From the NCBI GenBank assembly GCA_964016885.1, contig OZ024740.1:31000001-31064000 (forward strand): 64,000 nucleotides of DNA, written 5' to 3'. Shown here piece after piece: positions 13,779-55,129 of the stretch. The translations under genes and the position numbers were made by a program. Source of the stretch: Eledone cirrhosa (Eukaryota). Each line of letters opens with the position of its first letter. The stretch's first letter is position 1. Below the pieces are notes generated by a model. It was not told the origin of the DNA and did no database searches. It saw only the letters and a list, made by a program, of their open reading frames with translations.

Positions 13779-14537
13779 ATATATATATTAAGATAGAGGG
13801 GAAGAAAAAATGGCTTCACTTGTGCTTTCAACAAATTTATTTTCTTCACAAAATCCAAAAATAATTTTTCTTAAAAAAAATTATTTTATAAATTAAGTTG
13901 TTGGTTATATATAAATAGATAGCTATAGATATATATATGGTAAACATTGAGGTCCGAATAAATTAACCGATATAAAAGATACAGAAGTGAAAACCAACCA
14001 AACAGTGAGTGTGTTCTGTTATTAATTCTGGCAATATTATTACAACAATATGACCCTCCCCAAGTATAAGGATATATAGATATATATACAAATATTTATG
14101 TACATGTGTACTTGTTTACACTTAAGCATGCACACACATAAATTGCACTTCTTTACTGTTTCATTACATTCATGTCCTCATCTTTTAACTATTTTGTAGT
14201 ATGCAAGGCAGTGATAATTTCCCACTTTCAAGGAAAAGGAATGGATATGAACCAGAAATAATGGATGCATTTGCTTATGACAACAAGGCTGTAAGAACTA
14301 TATCTTTATAAGTTATCACCTACTATTTTCACAACTCTAAAATAATCTTTATATATATATATATATGTGTGTGTTGTGTGTGTGTGTGTGTGTGCATGTA
14401 TATATGTATATATGTATGTATATGTAAATATATATATGTATATATATGTATATATATATATGTATTTCATCATCATCATCATCATCGTTTAACGTCCATC
14501 TTCCACGCTTGCATGGGTGTGTATATATATATATATA

Positions 14538-15771
14538 CAGGGTGCGGACGATATTTGTTCGCAAGATTACTGTCTAGGAAAAAATAACACAGTAGTTTTA
14601 TTTTTTAAGATATATTTATCAAACTTGGGTCAGTTTGTCTTCATGACTTATTCTTTCAATCTCACTCGATAAGCCCACCATTGGCTTTGATGACGGCCTT
14701 CGTCACTGTCCCCCCAACTAAAGGCACTTGTGATCCTGGCCTTCAGATCGTCTTTCGTATTGCAGCTCGATCTCTTGGTGTCTCGTTCCACTGCACCCCA
14801 CACAAAGAAGTCGAGGGGGGTTGCAGTCAGGCGAGCTAGGAGGCCAGATGTCAGGTGAAGTGTGGTCGATGAAGTTCTCTGACAGCCAGGCTTGGGTCTT
14901 TCGGCTGGTATGGCAGGGTGCTGAGTCTTGCCGCCACACGTACGGCCTACCTGCAGCTACCTGGTCGATCCAGGGCTTTACTACCTCGCTCAGAACGCGG
15001 ATGTAGCCATCGGTGTTCAGCTTGAGGCCCTCAGGGAAGAAGTGAGGTGGCATGACGTCACCTTGATTGCTGACGACACCTAAGACCAATGTTGTCGCTG
15101 GAAACTTTGTCTGGGCACGTCTTTGAATGAGACAGCGAGCCACCTGTTGTTCTGGGTGTTGATCTTTTGGTCTTGGCAGAAGTTTTTCTCGTCAGAGAAA
15201 AACCACAGCATGTCTGGCTCCAGTGGGTATTTCAACTTGTTGATCAGCTTCTTTGCATGCTTCAGTCGCTTTTCTTGCATCGCCTTTGACAGAAATTGTC
15301 CTTTCTTCATCTTGTATGAAACGTAGGAAATGTCTTCATGTACCACCAGCCTAATGAGCTTTTCATTCACGCCTTTCTCCCTTGCAAAGGCACGCATCGA
15401 CTTGCTAGGTTCATTGTTGATGATATCCTGAACTTCAGCGACGAACTTGGTCATTCTGAAGGCGTCAGATCATCGATCATGTGTTTTCCTCTCTGATGTT
15501 GCTTCATAATCGAATCCTGAATCTTCCAATTCCTTTCTGACCTTTTCCACCATTCTCCTGCTGACACTGAGAAAGTCTGAAATTTTCTTATTTGTCCTCC
15601 TGGCACGGATTCCATAAATTTGGAGGTTCAAAATTATTCATAATCAATTATTCTGAAAATAAATAATGGAAATATAGTCACTGTTTTTATGAAGACAAGA
15701 CTGACAACGGAAGTAAAAAAAATTGGCATAAAATTAGCAGTTGAAAATTGCGAACAAATATCGTCCACACC

Positions 15772-15774
<3 letters not shown>
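14538..15774 (-). mobile_element. Tc1/mariner DNA transposon, DD37D (maT) family, frameshifted transposase
   Basis: TIRs CAGGGTGCGGACGATATTTGTTCGCAA / TTGCGAACAAATATCGTCCACACCCTG flanked by TA. Motifs FSDEK, RQDSAPCH, WPPSSPDCNP[L]D. After removing one C from a homopolymer, 37 residues separate the second and third Asp. Confidence 0.92.
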
Positions 15775-15829
<55 letters not shown>

Positions 15830-15972
15830 AGTATATGTTGGTTGTGTACCAACACCCCAGTATACAGATTGGAGCACTCGACGAAGTGAGCAGGTTGGTT
15901 TGGTTACTCCGGAGTAATGTAAAATAAAATGAAATAAATAAGTCAAATGTTTAAAATTTGGCTTCGTTTATT

Positions 15973-16027
15973 ACTGCTATATATATTTCGGTGGCAGCCA
16001 TCTTTGGCTGTGACCTCTTCAGGCAGT
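15973..16027 (-). ncRNA. Type I hammerhead ribozyme (left arm of fold-back)
   Basis: Exact reverse complement of 16179-16233. Confidence 0.85.
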
Positions 16028-16178
16028 CCGAATTAGTGTGGTAGAGAACTGGAATCATATGATATGATTCCAGTTCCTCAATGAAACAACAACCCAACCA
16101 GGAATTGGGCATATCAGAGTATTGACAAAGTTATACACCTCAACAACATGTGTACTCGTCTCTACCACACTAATTTGG

Positions 16179-16233
16179 ACTGCCTGAAGAGGTCACAGCC
16201 AAAGATGGCTGCCACCGAAATATATATAGCAGT
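16179..16233 (+). ncRNA. Type I hammerhead ribozyme (right arm of fold-back)
   Basis: actgc-CTGAAGA-ggt-ca-cagcca-aaga-tggctg-cc-acc-GAAA-tatata-TA-gcagt. Perfect 5-bp stem I, G10.1-C11.1 stem II, palindromic stem III, AUA triplet. AATAAA follows immediately. Confidence 0.85.
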
Positions 16234-16289
16234 AATAAACGAAGCCAAATTTTAAACATTTGACTTATTTATTTTATTTTATTTTATTT

Positions 16290-16320
<31 letters not shown>

Positions 16321-16678
16321 ATATATATATATGTACGGCCGAAACTCAAGTCCGGGAACTATTACAGGCACCCGTTTTACGTGTGTTGTATTGAAGCGAA
16401 TAACTATGTGTATACTCTGGGAATGTATCTTACATTGCCCATGGGGTACGCTGAGATACAACCGGTCCTGGCATTGATAAATATGCTGGGTCCGTCAACT
16501 CCTTATTATGTATATATATATATGTATATATATTTAGTTAGTCTAATTAAATAGCTCTGTTCTATACATATAGCACTCATTTTTCCTTTGCTTGTCCTTC
16601 GGAATTACCTAACACATATGTATATATATATACATACATATATATATATATAAATACATATATATGTACATATATATG

Positions 16679-17427: not shown

Positions 17428-19868
17428 ATAAGACTTGTCCTCAATAGAACTACTGTGACAATAATATCTGCATATGCACCACAATCCGGACTGCCTGGCG
17501 ATATAAAAGACAGATTCTATGAGACGTTAATGCTCACTACCTCCCAAATAACCGACAGTGACTACATAGTTATCGCTGGTGACCTAAATGGTCACGTTGG
17601 ACAACATTGTGACAGCTATGATGGAATCGATGGAGGCTATGGGTTTGGTACTAGAAATGAGGAAGGCTCCAGAATCCTGGAATTCTGTGACACAAATAAC
17701 CTAACTATCTGTAACACTAACTTCAAAAAACGAGACAATCACTTGATCACCTATAGATCAGGGGAACACACCAGTCAGATAGATTATATCCTTACCAGAA
17801 GACGTGATAGAGTGTCTGTTGTAAACACTAAATCCCTCCCCCATGAAGTATGCACCTCCCAACATAGACTCATAATTAGCGACCTCATAGTCAGGACGAG
17901 ATGTACTCGACAACAGAGGAGGACTATCCTCAGGAGAAAAATATGGAAGTTAAAGGACCCCACAGCCAGTAATAAATTTAAAAGCATATTACTTGATGCT
18001 TTTGATAGTAAGGAAGAGGAATTAGAGTCGTACAATATAGAGGAACAGTGGAAATTCCTGAAAGCTAACCTGCTGAAGGCGACAGATGAAACCTGCTGTG
18101 GCTGGAGCAGACCTATAGGCAGGAGGAGAGTAACTTGGTGGTGGAACAGTAAGGTGGAGGGGTCAATCAAGGCTAAAGAGCAGGCTTGGAAAGCATGGCA
18201 GGATGGGGGAAGTAGAGAAGACTATCAAGTGGCCAGGAGGGAAGCTAGGAGACAAGTGTACTTCGCAAGAAGGGAAGCAGAGGAAAGAAAGTTCAAGCAT
18301 GTTCTACAACGCGAGGACCAAAAACGTGAGGTGTTCAGGATTGCTAGGCAATGTGTCAAGGAAAACCATGATATTGTCGGGGAGAAGTGTGTCCTTAATG
18401 ATGATGGTGTACTTGCCATCACTAACGCTGATAAGAAGGTAGCTTGGAAGTGTCACTACGAAAGGCTACTAAATCAGGAGAATAATTGGGAGTAAGACAG
18501 TCTCCCCCACATCGATCCAATAGAGGGACCAGCAGTGCAAGTTGAAGGTAATATGATATGGTCACCCGGATAGTAAACCAAGTCATACAGAATAGGGTCG
18601 TTCCGAAGGACTGGCCCAGCATCATCATCATTAACTGCTACAAGGGTAAAGGAGATGCCCTAGATATGGGAAACTATAGAGGCATTAAATTAATTGACCA
18701 GGTCATGAAGGTCACAGAAAAAGTAATAGCGCAACTAATCAGAGAGCGAATCGATCTAGACGAAATGCAGTTCGGTTTTGTGTCAAGTAAAAGTACAACA
18801 GACGCTCGTTTCAGAGTACCCCGCTCGATTATCTGGTGGGCCCTTAGAAAACTAGGTGTTGATGAATGGCTTGTGAGAGCTATACAAGCCATGTATAAAG
18901 AAACAGTCAGCAAGGTTAGAATTAACAACGAATATAGTGAAGAGTTTAGCGTAAAAGTTGGTGTTCATCAGGGCTCCGTCCTTAGTCCCCTACTATTTAT
19001 TATTGCCCTTCAGGCTATAACAGAGGAGTTCAAGACCGGCTTCCCATGGGAACTTCTATACGCAGATGATCTAACGCTCATAGCTGAATCAATGGCTGAA
19101 CTAGAAAAGAAATTCCAAACATGGAAGCATGGCCTAGAATCAATAGGCCTTAAAGTTAACCTGTCTAAGACTAAAGTTCTAGTTTGTAGGAAGGAAAATA
19201 GGGCACTGGTCCCATCTGGGAAATGGCCATGCTCAGTGTGTAGGAATGGAGTAGGCAGAAACTCCATTTTATGTCCCAAATGCAAAGTATGGGTGCATAA
19301 AAGATGTAGTGGGATCACAGGTAAGCTAACTAAGAATATAGAGTTTATATGTGGCCGGTGCTCAGGTGCAATAAGTAGCAGCAAGTGCCCACAGAATACT
19401 AGCTCATTCCATTGCACAGATGGTTCTATAGAAATAGTGGACACCTTCCGTTACCTGGGTGACAAAATCAGCAGTGGTGGAGGGTGCTCTGAAAGTACAG
19501 TAGCTAGAGTCAGAACAGGATGGAAAAAGTTCGGAGAGCTTATATCACTATTGGCCGCTAAAGGGTTCTCTCTAAAAATGAAAGGCAGGCTGTATGATGC
19601 CTGCATACGAACAGCAATGTTACATGGCAGTTAGACCTGGGCATTGTGTGCAGAGGATATACGCAGACTGGAGAGGAACGAAGCTTGCATGCTCCATTGG
19701 ATGTGTAATAGTAATATACGTGAACGGCAAAGCATAAATGAACTAAGGGAGAAATTAGGTGGAGATGACGAAGGACCGTGACGAGTGGAGAGATGCTGTG
19801 CTGAATAAGACCCGTCCCACCCTTGCAAGCAGGGAAAAGCGGACGTAAAATGATGATGATGGTGATGA

Positions 19869-22196: not shown

Positions 22197-23683
22197 TCAT
22201 CATCATCATCATTTTACATCCGCTTTTCCCTGCTTGCAAGGGTGGGACGGGTCTTATTCAGCACAGCATCTCTCCACTCGTCACGGTCCCTCGTCATCTC
22301 CACCGTGAGCTTCAATGATCTGAGGTCTGTTCTCACCACCTCCGCCCATGTTTTTCGTGGTCTACCTCTACCACGTCTTCCTTCAACTGGCAATTCCTGG
22401 CACTTCTTCACCCATCGGTCATCCTCCATGTGCATCACATGTCCATACCACCTCAGTCTCCTCTCCCGTACACTACAATCTATCCCTCTCAGACACAGTT
22501 TCTCTCTCAACACATTTATGCTGGGTCGTTCACGCACATTTACACTGCACATCCAACGGAGCATGCTTGCCTCATTTCTCTCCAGCCGTCGCATACCCTC
22601 TGCAGTTGCTGCCCATGTCTCACTACCATGCAGCATCGCACTCCTCACACAGGCATCATACAACCGGCCTTTCATACGCAGGGAGAAACCCTTCTTCGTC
22701 AACAGAGGAAGCAGCTCCCTAAACTTCTTCCAACCCGTCCTTATTCTAGATACTATGGCCTCGGAACACCCTCCTCCCATGCTAATCTGATCTCCTAGGT
22801 ACCGGAAGCTATCCACCACTTCTATAGCGCCCTCTTCCATTTGAAAAATGTGTCTATCAGTGCGACTTCTACTGTCTAATTTCCCTGTACATCTACTGCA
22901 TACATATTTCTCCCTACTTGTTAGTTTGCCTGCTATCCCGCTACATCTCTTGTGTACCCAGGATCTGCATTGTGTGCATTTTATAGAATTTATGCCAGTT
23001 CCTTTTCTGCATATCGAACATGGCCATTTCCCTGACGGAATCAGGGTTTTGTCCTCTTTTCTACTCATCAACACTTTTGTCTTAGCTAGGTTCACTCTCA
23101 GTCCTCTTGCTTCCAACTGCTGTTTCCATAGCCAGAATTTATTCTCTAGCTCCTCTACTGATTCTGCTATAAGAACCAGATCGTCAGCATAGAGAAGTTC
23201 CCATGGACAGCCAGTCTTAAACTCCTCTGTTATGGCTTGGAGGACTATAATGAACAAGAGCGGGCTGAGGACCGAACCCTGATGTACTCCTACTTGTATC
23301 TGGAATTCCTCACTAAACTCCATTCCTACCCTGACTTTACTGAGAGTACCTCTGTACAAAGTTTGCACTGTCCTCACAAGCCATTCCTCAACTAGCTTCC
23401 TTAGGGACCACCAGATGACAGATCGGGGTACCCTATCAAAGGCCTTCTCTAGGTCAACAAAGGCTAAGTATAGTGGCTTATTCTTCTCTAAGAACCTCTC
23501 TTGCAATTGTCTCACCAAGAAGAGGGCTTCTGTTGTACTCTTCCCAGGCACAAAACCAAACTGCATCTCATCTAGTTTGACCCTTTCTCTAATTAGTTGT
23601 GCTAAAATCCTTTCTGCCACTTTCATAACCTGATCTATCAGTTTTATAACCCTATAATTGCTCCTCTCCAAAGCATCCCCTTT
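22197..23683 (-). mobile_element. 5'-truncated RTE family B LINE with uninterrupted RT ORF (22214-23671)
   Basis: 485-aa open frame with NYRVIKL, FVDLEKAFD, QGSVLSP, YADD, CSIC...CTQC...HKRC, YLG and GRPRKTW. The ORF runs directly into the (ATG)n tail. Confidence 0.92.
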
Positions 23684-23703
23684 ATAAATATATATATATA
23701 GTC

Positions 23704-23747
23704 TATCAAAGTTCTTTCATCACACATCTGTGACATCATCAGTGGTA
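23704..23747 (-). ncRNA. Minimal hammerhead-like motif
   Basis: Minus strand reads tacca-CTGATGA-tg-tcaca-gatg-tgtga-t-GAAA-gaac-TT-tgata. A related degenerate copy lies at 41921-41963. Confidence 0.6.
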
Positions 23748-26670: not shown

Positions 26671-29600
26671 ACATCATCATCATCATCATCATTTAACGTC
26701 CATCTTCCACACTTGCATGGGTTTGGACGGGAATTTTGCCACTTGAGGCAAGATTGGTTGTCTTGCTCGTATAGGACTGTCTGGCGGGTTTTCTACGGCT
26801 GGATGCCCTTCCTAACACCAACCACATTTACAGTGTGGACTGGGAGGTTTTTACCGTGTTAGCTACACGGCCACATTACAGCGTGGACTGTGTGGTTTTT
26901 TTGTCGTGACACCTACACGTGCTCATTTATTTCGGACTGGATGTTGTGGTACCAACATAACTTTACATTGGAAGGGCTGGTGTGGATGGGGTGGGGGTAG
27001 TGGGACGGGGGTGTATTTTTGTTAAGAGGTGCCTACTGACTGTAGGTTTTGTTTTGTACTTAGGCAAGGCGGGTCTTCTGTATTACTGTGTCGCGCCAAA
27101 GATCTCAGTCCAGTGACATTGTCTTGCAGAGGTGTAAGTGTGTGAGGTGGGAATTTATCAAGTCATCCCAGGTTTTTCTGGGTCTGCCTACTCCGTGGCT
27201 ACCGTCTATTTTTATCGCCCTGCACTTTTTTATACAGCAGTCGTCTTTCATGCGCATCACGTGACCATACCAACGTAGTCTTCTCTCGAGTAAACAACAT
27301 CTGATCCCTCTTATTCCTAATTTCTCCCTTAGTTCATTTATGCTTTGCCGTTCACGTATATTACTATTACACATCCAGCGGAGCATGCAAGCTTCGTTCC
27401 TCTCCAGTCTGCGTAGATCCTCTGCACACAATGCCCAAGTCTCACTGCCATGTAACATTGCTGTTCGTATGCAGGCATCATACAGCCTGCCTTTCATTTT
27501 TAGAGAGAACCCTTTAGCGGCCAATAGTGGTATAAGCTCTCTGAAGTTTTTCCATCCCGTTCTGACTCTAGCTACTGTAATTTCAGAGCACCCTCCACCA
27601 CTGCTGATTTTGTCACCCAGGTAACGGAAGGTGTCCACTATTTCTATAGAACCACCTGTGCAATGGAATGAGCTAGTATTCTGTTGGCACTTGCTGCTAC
27701 TTATTGCACCTGAGCACCGGCCATATAAAAAATCTATATTCTTAGTTAGCTTACCTCTGATCCCACTACATCTTTTATGCACCCATACTTTGCATTTGGG
27801 ACATAAAATGGAGTTTCTGCCTACTCCTTTCCTACACACTGAGCATGGCCATTTCCCAGATGGGACCTGTGCCCTATTTTCCTTCCTACAAACTAGAACT
27901 TTAGTCTTAGACAGGTTAATTTTAAGGCCTTTTGATTCTAGGCCATGCTTCCATGTTTGGAATTTCTTCTCTAGTTCAGCCATTGATTCAGCTATGAGCG
28001 TTAGATCATCTGCATATAGGAGTTCCCATGGGCAGCCGGTCTTGAACTCCTCTGTTATAGCCTGAAGGGCAATAATATATAGTAGGGGGCTAAGGACGGA
28101 GCCCTGATGAACACCAACTTTTACGCTAAACTCTTCACTATATTCGTTGTTAATTCTAACCTTGCTGACTGTTTCTTTATACATGGCTTGTATAGCTCTC
28201 ACAAGCCATTCATCAACACCTAGTTTTCTGAGAGCCCACCAGATAATGGGGCGTGGGTCTCTGTCAAAGGCTTTCTCCAAGTCAACAAAAGCTAAGTATA
28301 GGGGTTTACTTTTAGCTAGGTACTTCTCCTGTAGTTGTCGTACAATGAAAAAGAGCATCTGTGGTACTTTTGCCTGACACAAAACCGAACTGCATTTCGT
28401 CTAGATCAATTTGCTCTCTGATTAGTTGCGTTATTACTTTTTCTGTGACCTTCATGACCTGGTCAATTAATTTAATGCCTCTATAGTTTCCTCTATCTAG
28501 GGCATCTCCTTTACCCTTGTAGCAGTTAATGATGATGCTGCTACGCCAGTCCTTCGGAATGACCCCATTCTGTATGACTTGGTTTACTATCCAGGTGACC
28601 ATAGCGTGTCCCACCGTTCCAGATGCTTTCAGCATTTCAGAAACTATTTCCGAAGGCCCAGCCGCCTTACCCGTCTTCATGTCATTGATCGCCTTACTTA
28701 TTATACTACCTTCAACTTGCACTGCTGGTCCCTCTATTGGATCGATGTGGGGGAGACTGTTTTCTCCCATTTATTCTCCTCATTTAGTAGCCTTTCGTAG
28801 TGACACTTCCAAGCTACCTTCTTATCAGCGTCAGTGATGGCTAGTACACCATCATCATTAAGGACACACTTCTCCCTGACAATATCACGGTTTTCCTTGA
28901 CACATGCCTAGCAATCCCGAACACCTCACGTTTTTGGTCCTTGCGTTGTAGAACATGCTTGAACTTTCTTTCCTCTGCTTCCCTTCTTGCGAAGTACACT
29001 TGTCTCCTAGCTTCCCTCCTGGCCACTTGATAGTCTTCTCTACTTCCCCCATCCCGCCATACTTTCCAAGCCTGCTTTTTGGCCTTGATTGACTCCTCCA
29101 CCTTACTGTTCCACCACCAAGTTACTCTCCTCCTGCCTATAGGTCTGCTCCAGCCACAGATTTCATCTGTCGCCTTCAGCAGGTTAGCTTTCAGGAATTC
29201 CCACTGTTCCTCTATATTGTACGACTCTAATTGCTCTTCCTTACTATCAAAAGCATCAAGTAATATGCTTTTAAATTTATTACTGGCTGTGGGGTCCTTT
29301 AGCTTCCATATTTTTCTCCTGAGGATAGTCCTCCTCTGTTGTCGAGTACGTCTCGTCCTGACTATGAGGTCGCTAATTATGAGTCTATGTTGAGAGGTGC
29401 ATTCTTCGTGGGGGAGGGATTTAGTGTTTACAACAGACACTCTATCACGTCTTCTGGTAAGGATATAATCTATCTGACTGGTGTGTTCCCCTGATCTATA
29501 GGTGATCATGTGATTGTCTCGAGTTTTGAAGTTAGTGTTACAGATAGTTAGGTTATTTGCGTCACAGAATTCCAGGATTCTGGAGCCTTCCTCATTTCTA

Positions 29601-30043
29601 GTACCAAACCCATAGCCTCCATGGATTCCGTCATAGCCATCACAATGTTGTCCAACGTGACCATTTAGGTCGCCAGCGATAATTATGTAGTCACTGTCGG
29701 TTATTTGGGAGGTAGTGAGCATTAACGACTCATAGAATCTGTCTTTTATAACGCCAGGCAGTCCGGATTGGGGTGCATATGCAGACATTATTGTCACAGT
29801 AGTTCTATTGAGGACAAGTCTTATTTTAATTATTCTGTCGTTCACTCTATTTACGTCTATTATCTTATCTGCCCACTTTTCTGCTAGCATGATTCCTACC
29901 CCACCCAGCCTATTGTCATTTCCCACCCAGAAAAGCTTATAACATCGTTTTCTACCCACAATGAATCTAGCAGACTCACCCCTCCACCTGGTCTCTTGAA
30001 TACAGCAAACATCAACCTCCTTACGTTCAAGCATTTCAAGCAC
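26671..30043 (-). mobile_element. Nearly full-length RTE family A LINE (APE plus RT, frameshifted)
   Basis: ORFs 28841-30043 (APE), 28312-28770 (GKAAGP, NYRGIKL) and 27105-28382 (RT). 3'UTR and (ATG)n tail at 26671-27050. Confidence 0.92.
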
Positions 30044-48665: not shown

Positions 48666-49194
48666 GCCTATTGTCTGTCTATATATATAAATGTATGTAT
48701 ATGTGTGCATGTCTTTGCTTTCACATTTGACACTGCTAGGTGGAGACATTTGTTTATGACATCATGTAATAATCATTGTTTCCATTGGTCTTTCCATCAC
48801 TGATACTATCTGCTGGTTGCAACTCCTGACAGAAGGTGAGATTTAAACTAAAAAAAACACAGAACTGGATCAAATACTGCAAAATATCCTGTTTGACATT
48901 TTAACAATTTCATCAATCCACCAGCTCTGGGCTGGTAATTTATTTATTGACTCTGAAAGGATGAAAGGCAAAGCTGACCTTGACAAGATTTTAACTCAAA
49001 GTACAGTGTACTGAAACAGATACTGAAGCATTTAATCAGATGCCCTTAACAACAATGCCAATTTGCCATGGAATTAAGGGGCAATATTGTATCAGAAGAT
49101 TGAACAAAAGAAAATTATTAAGAGGGAGTGCAAATCAAATTACAGAGTAACAATCAAGAAGACTTGGGATTGGGTAGTGAAGACCAACCGTAAG

Positions 49195-52100
49195 AAGCTG
49201 CACCTCATAATGGTGGACCAACCTTAAGAAACTGAACATCACAACAGAAGATCAACCTTTAGAAACTGAACCTCACAATAGAAGATCAACCTTTAGAAAC
49301 TGAACCTTACAACAGATGACGAACCTTTAGAAACTGAACCTCACAACAGATCAGCCTTTAGAAACTGAACCTCACAACAGATCAGCCTTTAGAAACTGAG
49401 CCTCACAACAGATGACGAACCTTTAGAAACTGAACCTCACAACAGAAGATCAGCCTTTAGAAACTGAGCCTCACAACAGAAGATCAACCTTTAGAAACTG
49501 AACCTCACAACAGAAGATCAACCTTTAGAAACTGAACCTCACAACAGATGACGAACCTTTAGAAACTGAACCTCACAACAGAAGATCAGCCTTTAGAAAC
49601 TGAGCCTCACAACAGAAGATCAACCTTTAGAAACTGAACCTCACAACAGAAGATCGACCTTTAGAAACTGAACCTCACAACAGATGACGAATCTTTAGAA
49701 ACTGAACCTCACAACAGATGACGAACCTTTAGAAACTGAACCTCACAACAGATGACGAATCTTTAGAAACTGAACCTCACAACAGATGACCAACCTTTAG
49801 AAACTGAACCTCACAACAGATGACCAACCTTTAGAAACTGAACCTCACAACAGAAGATCAACCTTAAGAAACTGAACCTCACAACAGATGACCAACCTTT
49901 AGAAACTGAACCTCACAACAGATGACCAACCTTTAGAAACTGAACCTCACAACAGATGACCAACCTTTAGAAACTGAACCTCACAACAGAAGATCAACCT
50001 TTAGAAACTGAACCTCACAACAGATGACCAACCTTTAGAAACTGAACCTCACAACAGAAGATCAACCTTTAGAAACTGAACCTCACAACAGATGACCAAC
50101 CTTTAGAAACTGAACCTCACAACAGATGACCAACCTTTAGAAACTGAACCTCACAACAGAAGATCAACCTTTAGAAACTGAACCTCACAACAGATGACCA
50201 ACCTTTAGAAACTGAACCTCACAACAGAAGATCAACCTTTAGAAACTGAACCTCACAACAGATGACCAACCTTTAGAAACTGAACCTCACAACAGATGAC
50301 CAACCTTTAGAAACTGAACCTCACAACAGATGACCAACCTTTAGAAACTGAACCTCACAACAGAAGATCAACCTTTAGAAACTGAACCTCACAACAGATG
50401 ACCAACCTTTAGAAACTGAACCTCACAACAGATGACCAACCTTTAGAAACTGAACCTCACAACAGATGACCAACCTTTAGAAACTGAACCTCACAACAGA
50501 AGATCAACCTTTAGAAACTGAACCTCACAACAGATGACCAACCTTTAGAAACTGAACCTCACAACAGATGACCAACCTTTAGAAACTGAACCTCACAACA
50601 GATGACCAACCTTTAGAAACTGAACCTCACAACAGAAGATCAACCTTTAGAAACTGAACCTCACAACAGATGACCAACCTTTAGAAACTGAACCTCACAA
50701 CAGATGACCAACCTTTAGAAACTGAACCTCACAACAGATGACCAACCTTTAGAAACTGAACCTCACAACAGAAGATCAACCTTTAGAAACTGAACCTCAC
50801 AACAGATGACCAACCTTTAGAAACTGAACCTCACAACAGATGACCAACCTTTAGAAACTGAACCTCACAACAGATGACCAACCTTTAGAAACTGAGCCTC
50901 ACAACAGAAGATCAACCTTTAGAAACTGAACCTCACAACAGAAGATCAACCTTTAGAAACTGAACCTCACAACAGATGACCAACCTTTAGAAACTGAACC
51001 TCACAACAGATGACCAACCTTTAGAAACTGAACCTCACAACAGATGACCAACCTTTAGAAACTGAACCTCACAACAGAAGATCAACCTTTAGAAACTGAA
51101 CCTCACAACAGATGACCAACCTTTAGAAACTGAACCTCACAACAGATGACCAACCTTTAGAAACTGAACCTCACAACAGATGACCAACCTTTAGAAACTG
51201 AACCTCACAACAGAAGATCAACCTTTAGAAACTGAACCTCACAACAGATGACCAACCTTTAGAAACTGAACCTCACAACAGATGACCAACCTTTAGAAAC
51301 TGAACCTCACAACAGATGACCAACCTTTAGAAACTGAACCTCACAACAGAAGATCAACCTTTAGAAACTGAACCTCACAACAGATGACCAACCTTTAGAA
51401 ACTGAACCTCACAACAGATGACCAACCTTTAGAAACTGAACCTCACAACAGATGACCAACCTTTAGAAACTGAACCTCACAACAGAAGATCAACCTTTAG
51501 AAACTGAACCTCACAACAGATGACCAACCTTTAGAAACTGAACCTCACAACAGATGACCAACCTTTAGAAACTGAACCTCACAACAGATGACGAACCTTT
51601 AGAAACTGAGCCTCACAACAGAAGATCAACCTTTAGAAACTGAACCTCACAACAGAAGATCAACCTTTAGAAACTGAACCTCACAACAGATGACCAACCT
51701 TTAGAAACTGAACCTCACAACAGATGACCAACCTTTAGAAACTGAACCTCACAACAGATGACCAACCTTTAGAAACTGAACCTCACAACAGAAGATCAAC
51801 CTTTAGAAACTGAACCTCACAACAGATGACCAACCTTTAGAAACTGAACCTCACAACAGATGACCAACCTTTAGAAACTGAACCTCACAACAGATGACCA
51901 ACCTTTAGAAACTGAACCTCACAACAGATGACCAACCTTTAGAAACTGAACCTCACAACAGATGACGAACCTTTAGAAACTGAACCTCACAACAGAAGAT
52001 CAACCTTTAGAAACTGAACCTCACAACAGATGACCAACCTTTAGAAACTGAACCTCACAACAGAAGATCAACCTTTAGAAACTGAACTTCACAACAGATC

Positions 52101-52562
52101 AACCTTTAGAAACTGAACCTCACAACAGATGACCAATCTTTAGAAACTGAACCTCACAACAGAAGATCAACCTTTAGAAACTGAACCTCACAACAGATGA
52201 CCAACCTTTAGAAACTGAACCTCACAACAGAAGATCAACCTTTAGAAACTGAACCTCACAACAGATGACCAACCTTTAGAAACTGAACCTCACAACAGAA
52301 GATCAACCTTTAGAAACTGAACCTCACAACAGATGACCAACCTTTAGAAACTGAACCTCACAACAGAAGATCAACCTTTAGAAACTGAACCTCACAACAG
52401 ATGACCAACCTTTAGAAACTGAACCTCACAACAGAAGATCAACCTTTAGAAACTGAACCTCACAACAGAAGATCAACCTTTAGAAACTGAACATCACAAC
52501 AGAAGATCAATCTTAAGAATCTGAACTTCACAACAGATCAACCTTTAGAAACTGAACCTGAC
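49195..52562. repeat. 34-bp tandem repeat, about 99 copies (CTTTAGAAACTGAACCTCACAACAGA[TGACC/AGATC]AAC)
   Basis: Unit counted directly. The lines starting at 50101 and 51121 are in identical phase (1020 = 30 x 34). Edges are degenerate. Confidence 0.95.
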
Positions 52563-55129
52563 AAAGGTTCACCATGAGGATTAGTAACATACTGTACTGG
52601 AGAAGATTCCCCCTACCAGCAGAAAATGTGACCTGACACATCCATGTGCCCCCCCCCCGCCTCTACTAGCACGCCTTAGTATCACTGACACACCCTACTG
52701 CAGCCATTCCCCTTCAATACCTTTAGCTAATCACCCCATCATAACAACTCCACCTGGTAGCTATCCTCACTATCAGAACTTAGTATCTACTCCCTCCATC
52801 CATATGCACCTCCCTCAACTCCATCTACTACCACTCCTTAGCAATCTTAATAATAATAAATAATAATAATGAAATATTGTGTACAGTGCTCAGGTGCACT
52901 ACAACTCATCAAAAAGTGTATGTATAGTACATCGGGTAATGCACAAACGTCAGGAAAATGAACAGTGCATGAGTCATGATATACACATGTGTGCATGTGT
53001 ATGGAAGGGGTACATCAGGTGTAGTTTTGGCGAATTTTGGGAAGCATGAGGGTTTTAAAGGATGCAGTGTCTCGGCAGCTAACAACTGATGCAGTCAGTT
53101 TGTTCCATGCTTCAGCACCTCTGAGCATGAAAAATTGCTTCCGAAAGTCATGGGAGCTGTGCTGTTTTCTGATTTTGTAGGCATGTCCACGTGTGTTAGA
53201 CATATGGAAATCAAAAAGGTGCTCAGGGTTGTTGTTGGCAAGATGGTTAATAACACCATCACTACACCCCCTACTCTAACACACTGGTGACCACACCCCT
53301 CCACTACTACCTCACTATCACTACAACCTCCCTCTAAAATCCTGACACACCTGTGACTACACCCTTCCATGCTATCAGAGATCACCACACTCCTCCTACC
53401 CACAAATCTGTCAAATCCATGACACTTTCCATACACCCATAACATTATACTTATTTTCCTTCTGGCTTGTAAACTGGCTCAGTCTGTGGATATCTGTCCA
53501 ACCCATGCTAGTGGGGAAAACAAATGATGGTGATGATGGTATGATAGGGAGGGCACCCAGCTATAGAAACCCTGCCAAAACTGGAACATATGTGAGATAT
53601 GGTCCTAGGCTTGTTTGGAAGGTTTGATTAAGTCCTGACTTAGTCTGTAAATATCTATCCAACCTATACTAGCATGGGGAAATGAACATTAAATGGTGGT
53701 GGTGGTGGTGGTGATGATGAATTATATTGAACAGAAATAGACTGGTAATCTTTTTTATCTTTTTTTGTCTTTACATTTTTTCAACTCTACATAACAGTAC
53801 GGAAATTACTTCATTAGTTTTGAACCCGAAAATATATTTTAGTTTAAGGGGTAAATAAAAATAAATCAAAAGGAATAAATTTTGTGCTGAAGAGGTCACA
53901 TAAAATAGGTTACCTAAAAATATAAACAGCAGTAGGTAGGCTTTATTACAGTCAAGTTATAATTAAGTTGAAATATTTATAGCTATTTCAACAAACTAAA
54001 TACTGCCATAACAACATTTAGAATAGTTAAGTTGCCAGACACATGGGGTACAATGTGAAGAAGTAGTGGAAAATAACACATGACTTAGACAAGTGGTTAT
54101 AACTATTTTTATATCTATTTTAATGCCCTTACACTATAAACCAGCCAGTGAGTGTTTGAATGTAGTCTGAGCTAACAAATAGATAAGTAGTATGTACTAG
54201 TTTACAAATGCTTCTCTGAATTTCAACTTGAAGCACCATTTTTAATATGTACAATCTTTAATTTCTAAATTCATCTCTAAAGACTAAAATATACTGAAAA
54301 CTTATTTTAATGGTATTCACAATCTTCAAGTATGTTTTTTGTATTATCACATGTTTACAACAGAATGTACAAAAAAAAATGAAATTAAAACTAGCTTAAC
54401 CCTTTCAATAGCAACCTCATTGAAACCACCTCTGGTTCTATGAAACAAAATCACCCAATTTAAACTTTGTTTAAGAGGATGTTGTAGTTTGATTGAAGTA
54501 TTGTGTAAACTATAGAAAACAGTTTCTTGTTTAACCCTTTAGCATTTACATTACTCTATATGTACCATTGTATTTTCGTGATTAAGGTTTTACCTCACAT
54601 AATCATCTCACATAATATCGAATCTATGAGATTTTGATATTATTTATTTTGAGAAAAATACCTTAACATCAGTATGAGTGGCCAGTTACGGGCGGTGTGA
54701 ACAGAAAAAGGTGAGAGAATTCTGGCCGGATACAGCCGGTTTAAATGCTAAAGGGTTAAAAGCTACCACCATGTGAATTGAACAGTTCTCATCATTACCA
54801 CCATTTAACGTCCATTTTCCATGCTTACATGAGTTAGATGGGTCATCCACATCGTGAGGCAAGTCTGGCCAGATTGGCCATGTCATACCTTGTTCAGATG
54901 GAACTGTAAATTTGGCCGGGATTTTTACAGCTGGATGCCCTTCCTAACACCAACCTCATTTACAGTGTGGATGGCACTGTAATGAGGAAGGACAACCCAG
55001 TTGGTTGTGCCATACCCTGCTCATATAGAGAAAACACTATTTTCTCTATATATATTTAAATTAAAACAGTCCATCATGATTTTATGTAAGAACCTTTCTA
55101 TCATTTGTTTTAAACACCAACTTAACAAT

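What the first reader, a model, noticed from the sequence alone, without database searches (positions are those of the whole stretch)
15925..16275. Bipolar fold-back cassette: identical intact hammerheads on both strands
Seen in sequence: ~120-bp arms (about 15930-16046 and 16160-16275) form a near-perfect inverted repeat. Each holds a canonical HHR followed by AATAAA and points outward to (TA)n. The spacer contains a second small palindrome (gaactggaatcatatgatatgattccagttc). Transcription from either direction gives an RNA with one sense ribozyme and its complement, so a long dsRNA hairpin competes with the ribozyme fold. This resembles the two-polarity arrangement of viroid-like RNAs, but the simpler explanation is a PLE insertion with an inverted terminal repeat.
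Basis: partly seen in the sequence, partly recalled or inferred. Interest (0 to 1): 0.72.

Follow-up and report, generated by a model that had tools for sequence, protein, structure and literature searches.

The report
Head-to-head stub of a Penelope retrotransposon
This mirror-image repeat is made of two truncated ends of a common Penelope-type jumping gene joined back to back in a TA repeat, a layout already described for these elements, and its two ribozyme motifs are predicted to be shut off by pairing with each other, so it is an ordinary insertion and likely not a two-way RNA device.

Summary
The inverted arms (133 nt, 97%), both type I hammerhead cores, both AATAAA and the central palindrome are real. 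One detail is wrong: the left arm is separated from (TA)n by a 92-bp tail. Arm, spacer and tail are the terminal repeat (pLTR) and 5' leader of an RT + GIY-YIG Penelope-like element of the Hydra clade; decayed near-full copies lie elsewhere in the genome. Head-to-head pairs are routine: 16 of 28 other loci found with the ribozyme alone. Junctions differ between loci and this one occurs once in 3.0 Gb, so the cassette does not spread as a unit. Inverted pLTRs, one-sided tail, junction palindromes and opposite-strand hammerheads are all published. Whole-cassette RNA is predicted to form one hairpin with no ribozyme fold. No RNA data could be had. Likely mechanism (inferred): two cDNAs, one primed at each target end, joined head to head; 48 of 50 pairs have the tail on exactly one arm. 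The scan has reported this layout before, in this genome and others.

The parts
15775..15826 (.). (TA)n target microsatellite, left part
   Evidence: target-site duplication cannot be read inside (TA)n
15827..15918 (-). 92-bp PLE tail = first part of the element's 5' leader, on the left arm only
   Evidence: in long copies L117, L118, L120 the same 92 bp follow the upstream pLTR and lead into the RT reading frame
15919..16047 (-). Left, 5'-truncated pLTR copy (family position about +81 to +211, numbering from window 16078 = 0)
15973..16027 (-). Type I hammerhead motif of the left arm; predicted cut between 15978 and 15977; AATAAA at 15967-15972
   Evidence: cleavage not tested
16046..16076 (.). 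Junction palindrome, 15-bp arms plus 1 nt: the first bases of the right pLTR and their inverted copy
   Evidence: the joint to the left arm occurs once in the genome
16062..16286 (+). Right pLTR copy (family position -16 to +208), includes the 'spacer' 16078-16158; no tail
16179..16233 (+). Type I hammerhead motif of the right arm; predicted cut between 16228 and 16229
   Evidence: core intact in 121 of 134 family arms; cleavage not tested
16234..16239 (+). AATAAA, part of the pLTR
   Evidence: present in 132 of 134 family arms; use as a poly(A) signal not tested
16287..16332 (.). (TA)n target microsatellite, right part

Best explanation
The cassette is a gene-less insertion of a Hydra-clade Penelope-like retrotransposon, made of two truncated copies of its hammerhead-bearing terminal repeat joined head to head in (TA)n, and it was likely built on landing from two cDNAs, one primed at each end of the cut target. 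Shown: identity of the parts, parent element, recurrence of the layout, uniqueness of the joint. Inferred: one cDNA started at the end of the pLTR and the other at the end of the tail, both ran towards the RNA 5' end near the self-complementary 8-mer at family position -18, and they were joined there, with 81 bp skipped or later deleted in the left arm. Predicted: a read-through RNA of either strand folds into one long hairpin, so neither ribozyme would cut; the copy is likely inert cargo.
For: Parent: loci L071/L072 and L117-L120 carry RT fragments, GIY-YIG endonuclease (PF01541, E 1.2e-4, 22.7 bits against cut-off 22.6, on L062), 3' UTR, spacer, arm and tail on one strand; L120 shows inverted tailed pLTR, direct pLTR, tail, ORF, 3' pLTR. 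Recurrence: 29 of 29 other loci fetched with the cassette, 16 of 28 fetched with the ribozyme alone and 5 of 28 fetched with the spacer have an inverted partner within 400 bp; longer pairs with arms of 0.4-1.5 kb reach into the ORF. Independent origin: exact joint 1 match in 3.0 Gb; 45 different end-and-gap combinations among 50 pairs (five combinations occur twice), and two such twins checked differ in subfamily variants or tail side (L005/L028, L009/L011). One template per pair: diagnostic site 16246 agrees in 43 of 43 pairs, shuffle mean 22.1. Two fixed start points: 48 of 50 pairs have the tail on exactly one arm, 2 on none, 0 on both; the tailed arm is the 5'-shorter one in 24, the longer in 18, equal in 6. 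5' ends pile up at -20..-12: 12 of 39 and 8 of 28 ends in the two sets whose query lacked the joint. A purified PLE protein cuts and extends both strands and starts at two RNA sites that bound the tail (PMC11167929). Fold: stems I and II at 0.70 and 0.94 in the arm alone, 0.000 in the whole cassette on both strands.
Against: The assembly steps are read from end products only. A single tailed cDNA that snapped back at the 8-mer, followed by a deletion in the left arm, gives the same sequence at this locus. The samples are the best-identity hits (40 scored of 331-1975 candidates per search), not random. Arm ends are BLAST ends, good to a few bases. No intact full-length ORF was seen in the 6 long loci read. 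Pfam did not recognise the family's own RT fragment at E 0.001; it is 42% identical over 312 aa to a fragment that hits RVT_1 below cut-off. The in vitro work is on a Poseidon-clade element, not a Hydra one. Co-transcriptional folding could let the ribozyme form before the antisense arm is made on the strand where it comes first; here the sense ribozyme is always in the second arm transcribed, which disfavours this, but promoters inside the cassette were not mapped.
Confidence: 0.9

Rival explanations
1. Same element, different assembly: one cDNA ran from the tail to the 5' end, snapped back on the self-complementary 8-mer and copied itself; asymmetry came from jumps or later deletions in an unstable palindrome.
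For: Joints fall on natural self-complementary words of the pLTR: the 8-mer at -18 and the 9-bp inverted match between -8 and +22. Short inverted copies of the first 15-40 bases sit at many joints, including this one. Self-priming was proposed from such junction palindromes in PMC3846280.
Against: Neither arm here is contained in the other (left has the tail, right has the spacer), so a second event is needed; the tailed arm is the shorter in 24 of 48 one-tailed pairs. Unpaired copies mostly lack the tail (10 of 35 have it), so snap-back should give many tail-less pairs, yet only 2 of 50 are. Annealing of two cDNA ends uses the same words.
Confidence: 0.3
2. A non-autonomous fold-back element (MITE-like or retrozyme-like) that is copied as a unit.
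For: At least 30 loci match the cassette over nearly its whole length at 86-94%; five end-and-gap combinations occur twice among 50 pairs.
Against: This joint is unique; joints vary and tail side switches; twins checked belong to different subfamilies or have opposite tails; arm lengths form a continuum up to ORF-containing copies; no tandem array at this locus, unlike non-LTR retrozymes (bioRxiv 10.64898/2026.07.22.740005).
Confidence: 0.04
3. A functional two-polarity ribozyme or dsRNA device, viroid-like or co-opted by the host.
For: Both cores are intact; non-CpG substitutions are fewer in core positions, 11 of 1335 against 147 of 9798, P = 0.048. A transcript would be a long dsRNA hairpin.
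Against: The core result is marginal and biased, since loci were chosen by likeness to an intact query. Young copies inherit intact cores from the parent (pair divergence 2.6% on average). The whole-cassette fold abolishes the ribozyme. The 2-bp stem III type needs a same-strand dimer and cuts poorly in vitro (PMC4209133). The readable neighbours are transposon fragments.
Confidence: 0.02

Closest known systems
Hydra clade of C-terminal-endonuclease Penelope-like elements (Craig et al. 2021, PMC8557442), including Hydra-1_Obim
   Same: RWK and DKT motifs, CxCX5C linker, no CCHH finger, CxxC and CxH around the conserved E and N, type I hammerhead in the pLTR, (TA)n targets.
   Different: Longer (about 4 kb between pLTRs in L118 and L120, with low-complexity inserts and a 3' UTR over 1 kb) than the usual under 3 kb; its hammerhead differs by eye from the one listed for Hydra-1_Obim, so it is another family. 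No tree was built.
'Typical Penelope structure' with inverted pLTR, one-sided tail and junction palindrome (Adineta vaga Pen2/Pen3, PMC3846280; D. virilis Penelope, PMC2377424; Fig. 2 text of PMC8557442)
   Same: Head-to-head inverted, 5'-truncated pLTR; tail at one end; palindrome at the inverted joint.
   Different: No ORF between the repeats; tail is 92 bp, not 30-40 bp; target-site duplication unreadable in (TA)n.
Dual opposite-strand hammerheads of truncated PLEs (Cervera and de la Pena 2014, PMC4209133)
   Same: The paper reports pairs of PLE hammerheads 100-700 bp apart on opposite strands, and a variant with a small palindromic helix III, as here.
   Different: Different host and family; here the motif lacks the extra base 5' of stem II that the paper finds typical.
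Non-LTR retrozymes and viroid-like RNAs with ribozymes in both polarities
   Same: Small, non-coding, type I hammerhead, PLE-related.
   Different: Retrozymes are head-to-tail tandem arrays with same-strand ribozymes; this is a single head-to-head pair. Viroid-like RNAs replicate as RNA circles (recalled); nothing here shows a circle.

Membership tests
EN+ Penelope-like element | RT and C-terminal GIY-YIG endonuclease in one ORF linked to the terminal repeat | tested here: met
   Met in the parent family, in pieces broken by stops and frameshifts; the cassette itself has no ORF
EN+ Penelope-like element | pLTRs from partial tandems, with optional inverted 5'-truncated copy | tested here: met
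   L118 direct pLTRs; L120 inverted plus direct pLTRs; this locus is the inverted pair alone
EN+ Penelope-like element | Tail that continues the pLTR into the element's 5' body, at one end only | tested here: met
   Tail leads into the ORF in L117, L118, L120; on one arm in 48 of 50 pairs
EN+ Penelope-like element | Type I hammerhead in the pLTR | tested here: met
   Motif and stems; self-cleavage itself not tested
EN+ Penelope-like element | Target-site duplication | tested here: inconclusive
   Both ends lie in (TA)n
Hydra clade | RWK and DKT motifs in the RT N-terminal region | tested here: met
   RWK read in L118; DKT in L117, L118, L120; definition
Hydra clade | CxCX5C linker, no CCHH, CxxC and CxH around E and N of the endonuclease | tested here: met
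   Read in L068, L070/L119, L072
Hydra clade | Placement in the Hydra clade on an RT tree | not tested
   Only motif comparison and by-eye reading of the paper's supplement
Neptune clade (my first guess) | CX2-5CxxC linker and CCHH finger | tested here: not met
   Linker is CxCX5C and only one Cys lies between the GIY and YIG words
Non-LTR retrozyme | Head-to-tail tandem units, each with a same-strand hammerhead | tested here: not met
   No tandem unit at this locus; definition
MITE / non-autonomous unit | Many copies with the same internal structure and ends | tested here: not met
   Joint unique; joints and tail side vary
Viroid-like RNA | Circular RNA with active ribozymes in both polarities | not testable with these tools
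   Needs RNA reads and a cleavage assay; folding predicts no ribozyme in the whole-cassette RNA

The most novel reading that the evidence does not exclude
The copies of this family record how Hydra-clade PLEs make inverted ends: one protein-RNA complex primes a cDNA at each cut target end from two fixed RNA sites 92 nt apart, both run off at a transcription start near position -18, and the self-complementary cDNA ends are joined, so mini-palindromes like this are the shortest normal product of integration.
Probability: 0.4. Interest if true: 0.4.

Novelty: new member of a known kind. Interest (0 to 1): 0.13.

Why it matters
As a locus it matters little: it is one of many such stubs. It is a caution for ribozyme screens, because opposite-strand hammerhead pairs in animal genomes are a by-product of Penelope integration and do not point to viroid-like replication. 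The family statistics (one-sided tail, 5' ends at one site, both arms from one template lineage) bear on an open question, how PLEs form tandem and inverted structures, which PMC8557442 names as unresolved, and give a concrete prediction for an in vitro test.

Tried and rejected
Rfam at gathering score: 0 matches in the window. RNA evidence: no RNA holder listed; the four runs listed are contigs of unrecorded kind from one study, and none of the pieces shown spans the joint, which says nothing either way. Those contigs do show other head-to-head joints ending at 16062, noted as a weak hint only. Editing trace in copies: A>G 26 of 4642 against T>C 7 of 2758, P = 0.07, inconclusive. The 'core-intact 0 of 132' line was an indexing slip of mine; one search gives the corrected 121 of 134. 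Neptune assignment rejected. The C at 16212 is shared by both arms here and by no other of 43 pairs; its frequency in single arms is inflated by searching with this copy. The 81 bp missing from the left arm has no GT-AG ends (read), so an intron was rejected. Look-up of earlier findings by sequence gave nothing. A paper search for Penelope with 'twin priming' and related terms listed 4 papers, none with that phrase; the library lacks most subscription papers, so this does not show the idea is unpublished. Rows dropped before counts: the window's own loci (L031, L087, L089; L001 also) and L053, a duplicate of L010; L040/L041 and L045/L046 are the two ends of long inverted insertions and count as unpaired at the 400-bp limit.

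Full report
Observation. The arms are real: 15915-16047 and 16159-16291, 133 nt, 97% complementary, folding as one hairpin far beyond shuffles. Each holds a type I hammerhead motif followed by AATAAA, and a 31-nt palindrome sits at 16046-16076. Two details need correcting. The left arm does not end in (TA)n but in a 92-bp extension, 15827-15918. The ribozyme is of the weak type: stem II has 8 of 10 pairs, and stem III is 2 bp around a palindromic loop, with pairing probability 0.005 in the isolated arm. Rfam gave no match at gathering score.

What it is. A search of the own genome (3.0 Gb) with the cassette gave 1975 candidates, 40 scored; the 29 other loci fetched all have two head-to-head arms. 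A search with the spacer alone led to copies that run on upstream for up to 1.5 kb or more, through a 3' UTR into a GIY-YIG endonuclease. A search with that endonuclease region gave loci with RT fragments, endonuclease, UTR, spacer, arm and extension on one strand. Six longer stretches showed the full layout: L118 has pLTR, extension, ORF, pLTR; L120 adds an inverted pLTR with the extension in front. The extension is thus the PLE tail, the start of the element's 5' leader, and an ATG follows about 55 bases later in L117. All long copies read carry stops or frameshifts. The proteins show RWK, DKT, a CxCX5C linker, no CCHH finger, and CxxC and CxH motifs, the features given for the Hydra clade in PMC8557442 (section 11 read whole). 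That note calls the host an octopus, which fits my recall of its repeats; I did not test it.

Unit or by-product. The exact joint between the left arm and the palindrome occurs once in the genome. Among loci found with the ribozyme alone, 16 of 28 have an inverted partner within 400 bp, 14 with a whole hammerhead in both arms. Over the three sets there are 50 pairs; five end-and-gap combinations occur twice, the rest once. Two such twins differ in subfamily variants or in which arm has the tail. Arms within a pair differ by 2.6% on average against 4.1% between pairs (45 pairs), and a subfamily site agrees in 43 of 43 pairs. So each pair was made on its own, from one template lineage or homogenised afterwards. 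All sets are best-identity hits, not random samples.

How it likely formed. 3' ends fall at two places, the end of the pLTR and the end of the tail. In 48 of 50 pairs exactly one arm has the tail, in 2 neither, in none both; the tailed arm is the 5'-shorter in 24, the longer in 18, equal in 6. Only 10 of 35 unpaired copies have it. 5' ends pile up at family positions -20 to -12, around a self-complementary 8-mer: 12 of 39 and 8 of 28 ends in the sets whose query lacked the joint. A purified Poseidon PLE protein cuts and extends both target strands and starts at two RNA sites that bound the tail (PMC11167929, parts 1-2 of 4 read). I infer that two cDNAs, one from each target end and each from one of the two start sites, ran to the RNA 5' end and were joined. 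Earlier notes on other genomes proposed this reading (e1-8019565, e1-8160173, e1-9529720); I reuse it and tested only its tail and end-point predictions. That -18 is a transcription start is a guess by analogy with the internal promoter of D. virilis Penelope (PMC2377424, passages). At this locus the small palindrome is the first 15 bases of the right arm and their mirror image, after which the left arm skips 81 bp. Snap-back of one cDNA plus a later deletion gives the same sequence and stays open (PMC3846280 proposed self-priming; passages). I put about 0.55 on two-ended priming, 0.3 on snap-back, and 0.9 or more on the PLE stub reading as a whole.

Function. In a read-through RNA of either strand the antisense arm is made first, and the hammerhead stems have pairing probability 0.000, against 0.70 and 0.94 in the arm alone. 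Hammerheads of this kind are reported to need same-strand dimers and to cut poorly (PMC4209133, parts 1-2 of 4). The slight deficit of core substitutions (P = 0.048) is marginal and biased by the query. Expression could not be tested. The neighbours are a Tc1/mariner-type element on the left and a piece of another hammerhead repeat on the right; 6 of 13 window ORFs scanned hit RT or LINE-type endonuclease families and 7 hit nothing.

Comparison and verdict. Inverted 5'-truncated pLTRs with a one-sided tail and (TA)n targets are described in PMC8557442 (passages; supplement passages), junction palindromes in head-to-head pairs in PMC3846280, and opposite-strand hammerhead pairs 100-700 bp apart in PMC4209133. 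Retrozymes are tandem arrays (bioRxiv 10.64898/2026.07.22.740005, part 1 of 5; its supplements were not seen). PMC13282606 (passages) added nothing on structure. The scan holds 125 findings with these words in at least 30 genomes. This is a new member of a known kind, interest 0.13.

Noticed in passing
window 14535-15775, minus strand: Tc1/mariner-type DNA transposon with both terminal inverted repeats and a broken transposase, directly left of the (TA)n target (family named from recalled motifs; Pfam gave no hit on two fragments).
   Followed up: partly
window 16333-16508: 5'-truncated piece of a second abundant repeat (2707 candidates) whose longer copies carry a hammerhead-like motif with a long stem II insert; only the 3' half of the core is kept here. 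Probably another PLE end in the same (TA)n.
   Followed up: partly
window 40707 (+), 38328 (+), 30477 (+), 20196 (-): Further hammerhead-like core matches from a loose pattern scan; 40707 looks the most complete. Not folded or searched.
   Followed up: no
L048 joint (G000:C1:353733697-353734036): Joint made of several repeated short copies of the pLTR's first bases mixed with TA runs, as if the 5' end was copied again and again.
   Followed up: no
L061:1944-3662 (+) and L061:9077-9790 (-); L049; L065; L066: Fragments of other Hydra-like PLE families lie next to copies of this family, suggesting shared (TA)n targets.
   Followed up: no
window 49182-52564: Minisatellite of about 100 copies of a 34-bp unit, 94% matches.
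   Followed up: no
window 17428-19634 (+), 22214-23716 (-), 27105-30043 (-): LINE fragments with endonuclease, RT and a PHD-finger match after the RT.
   Followed up: partly
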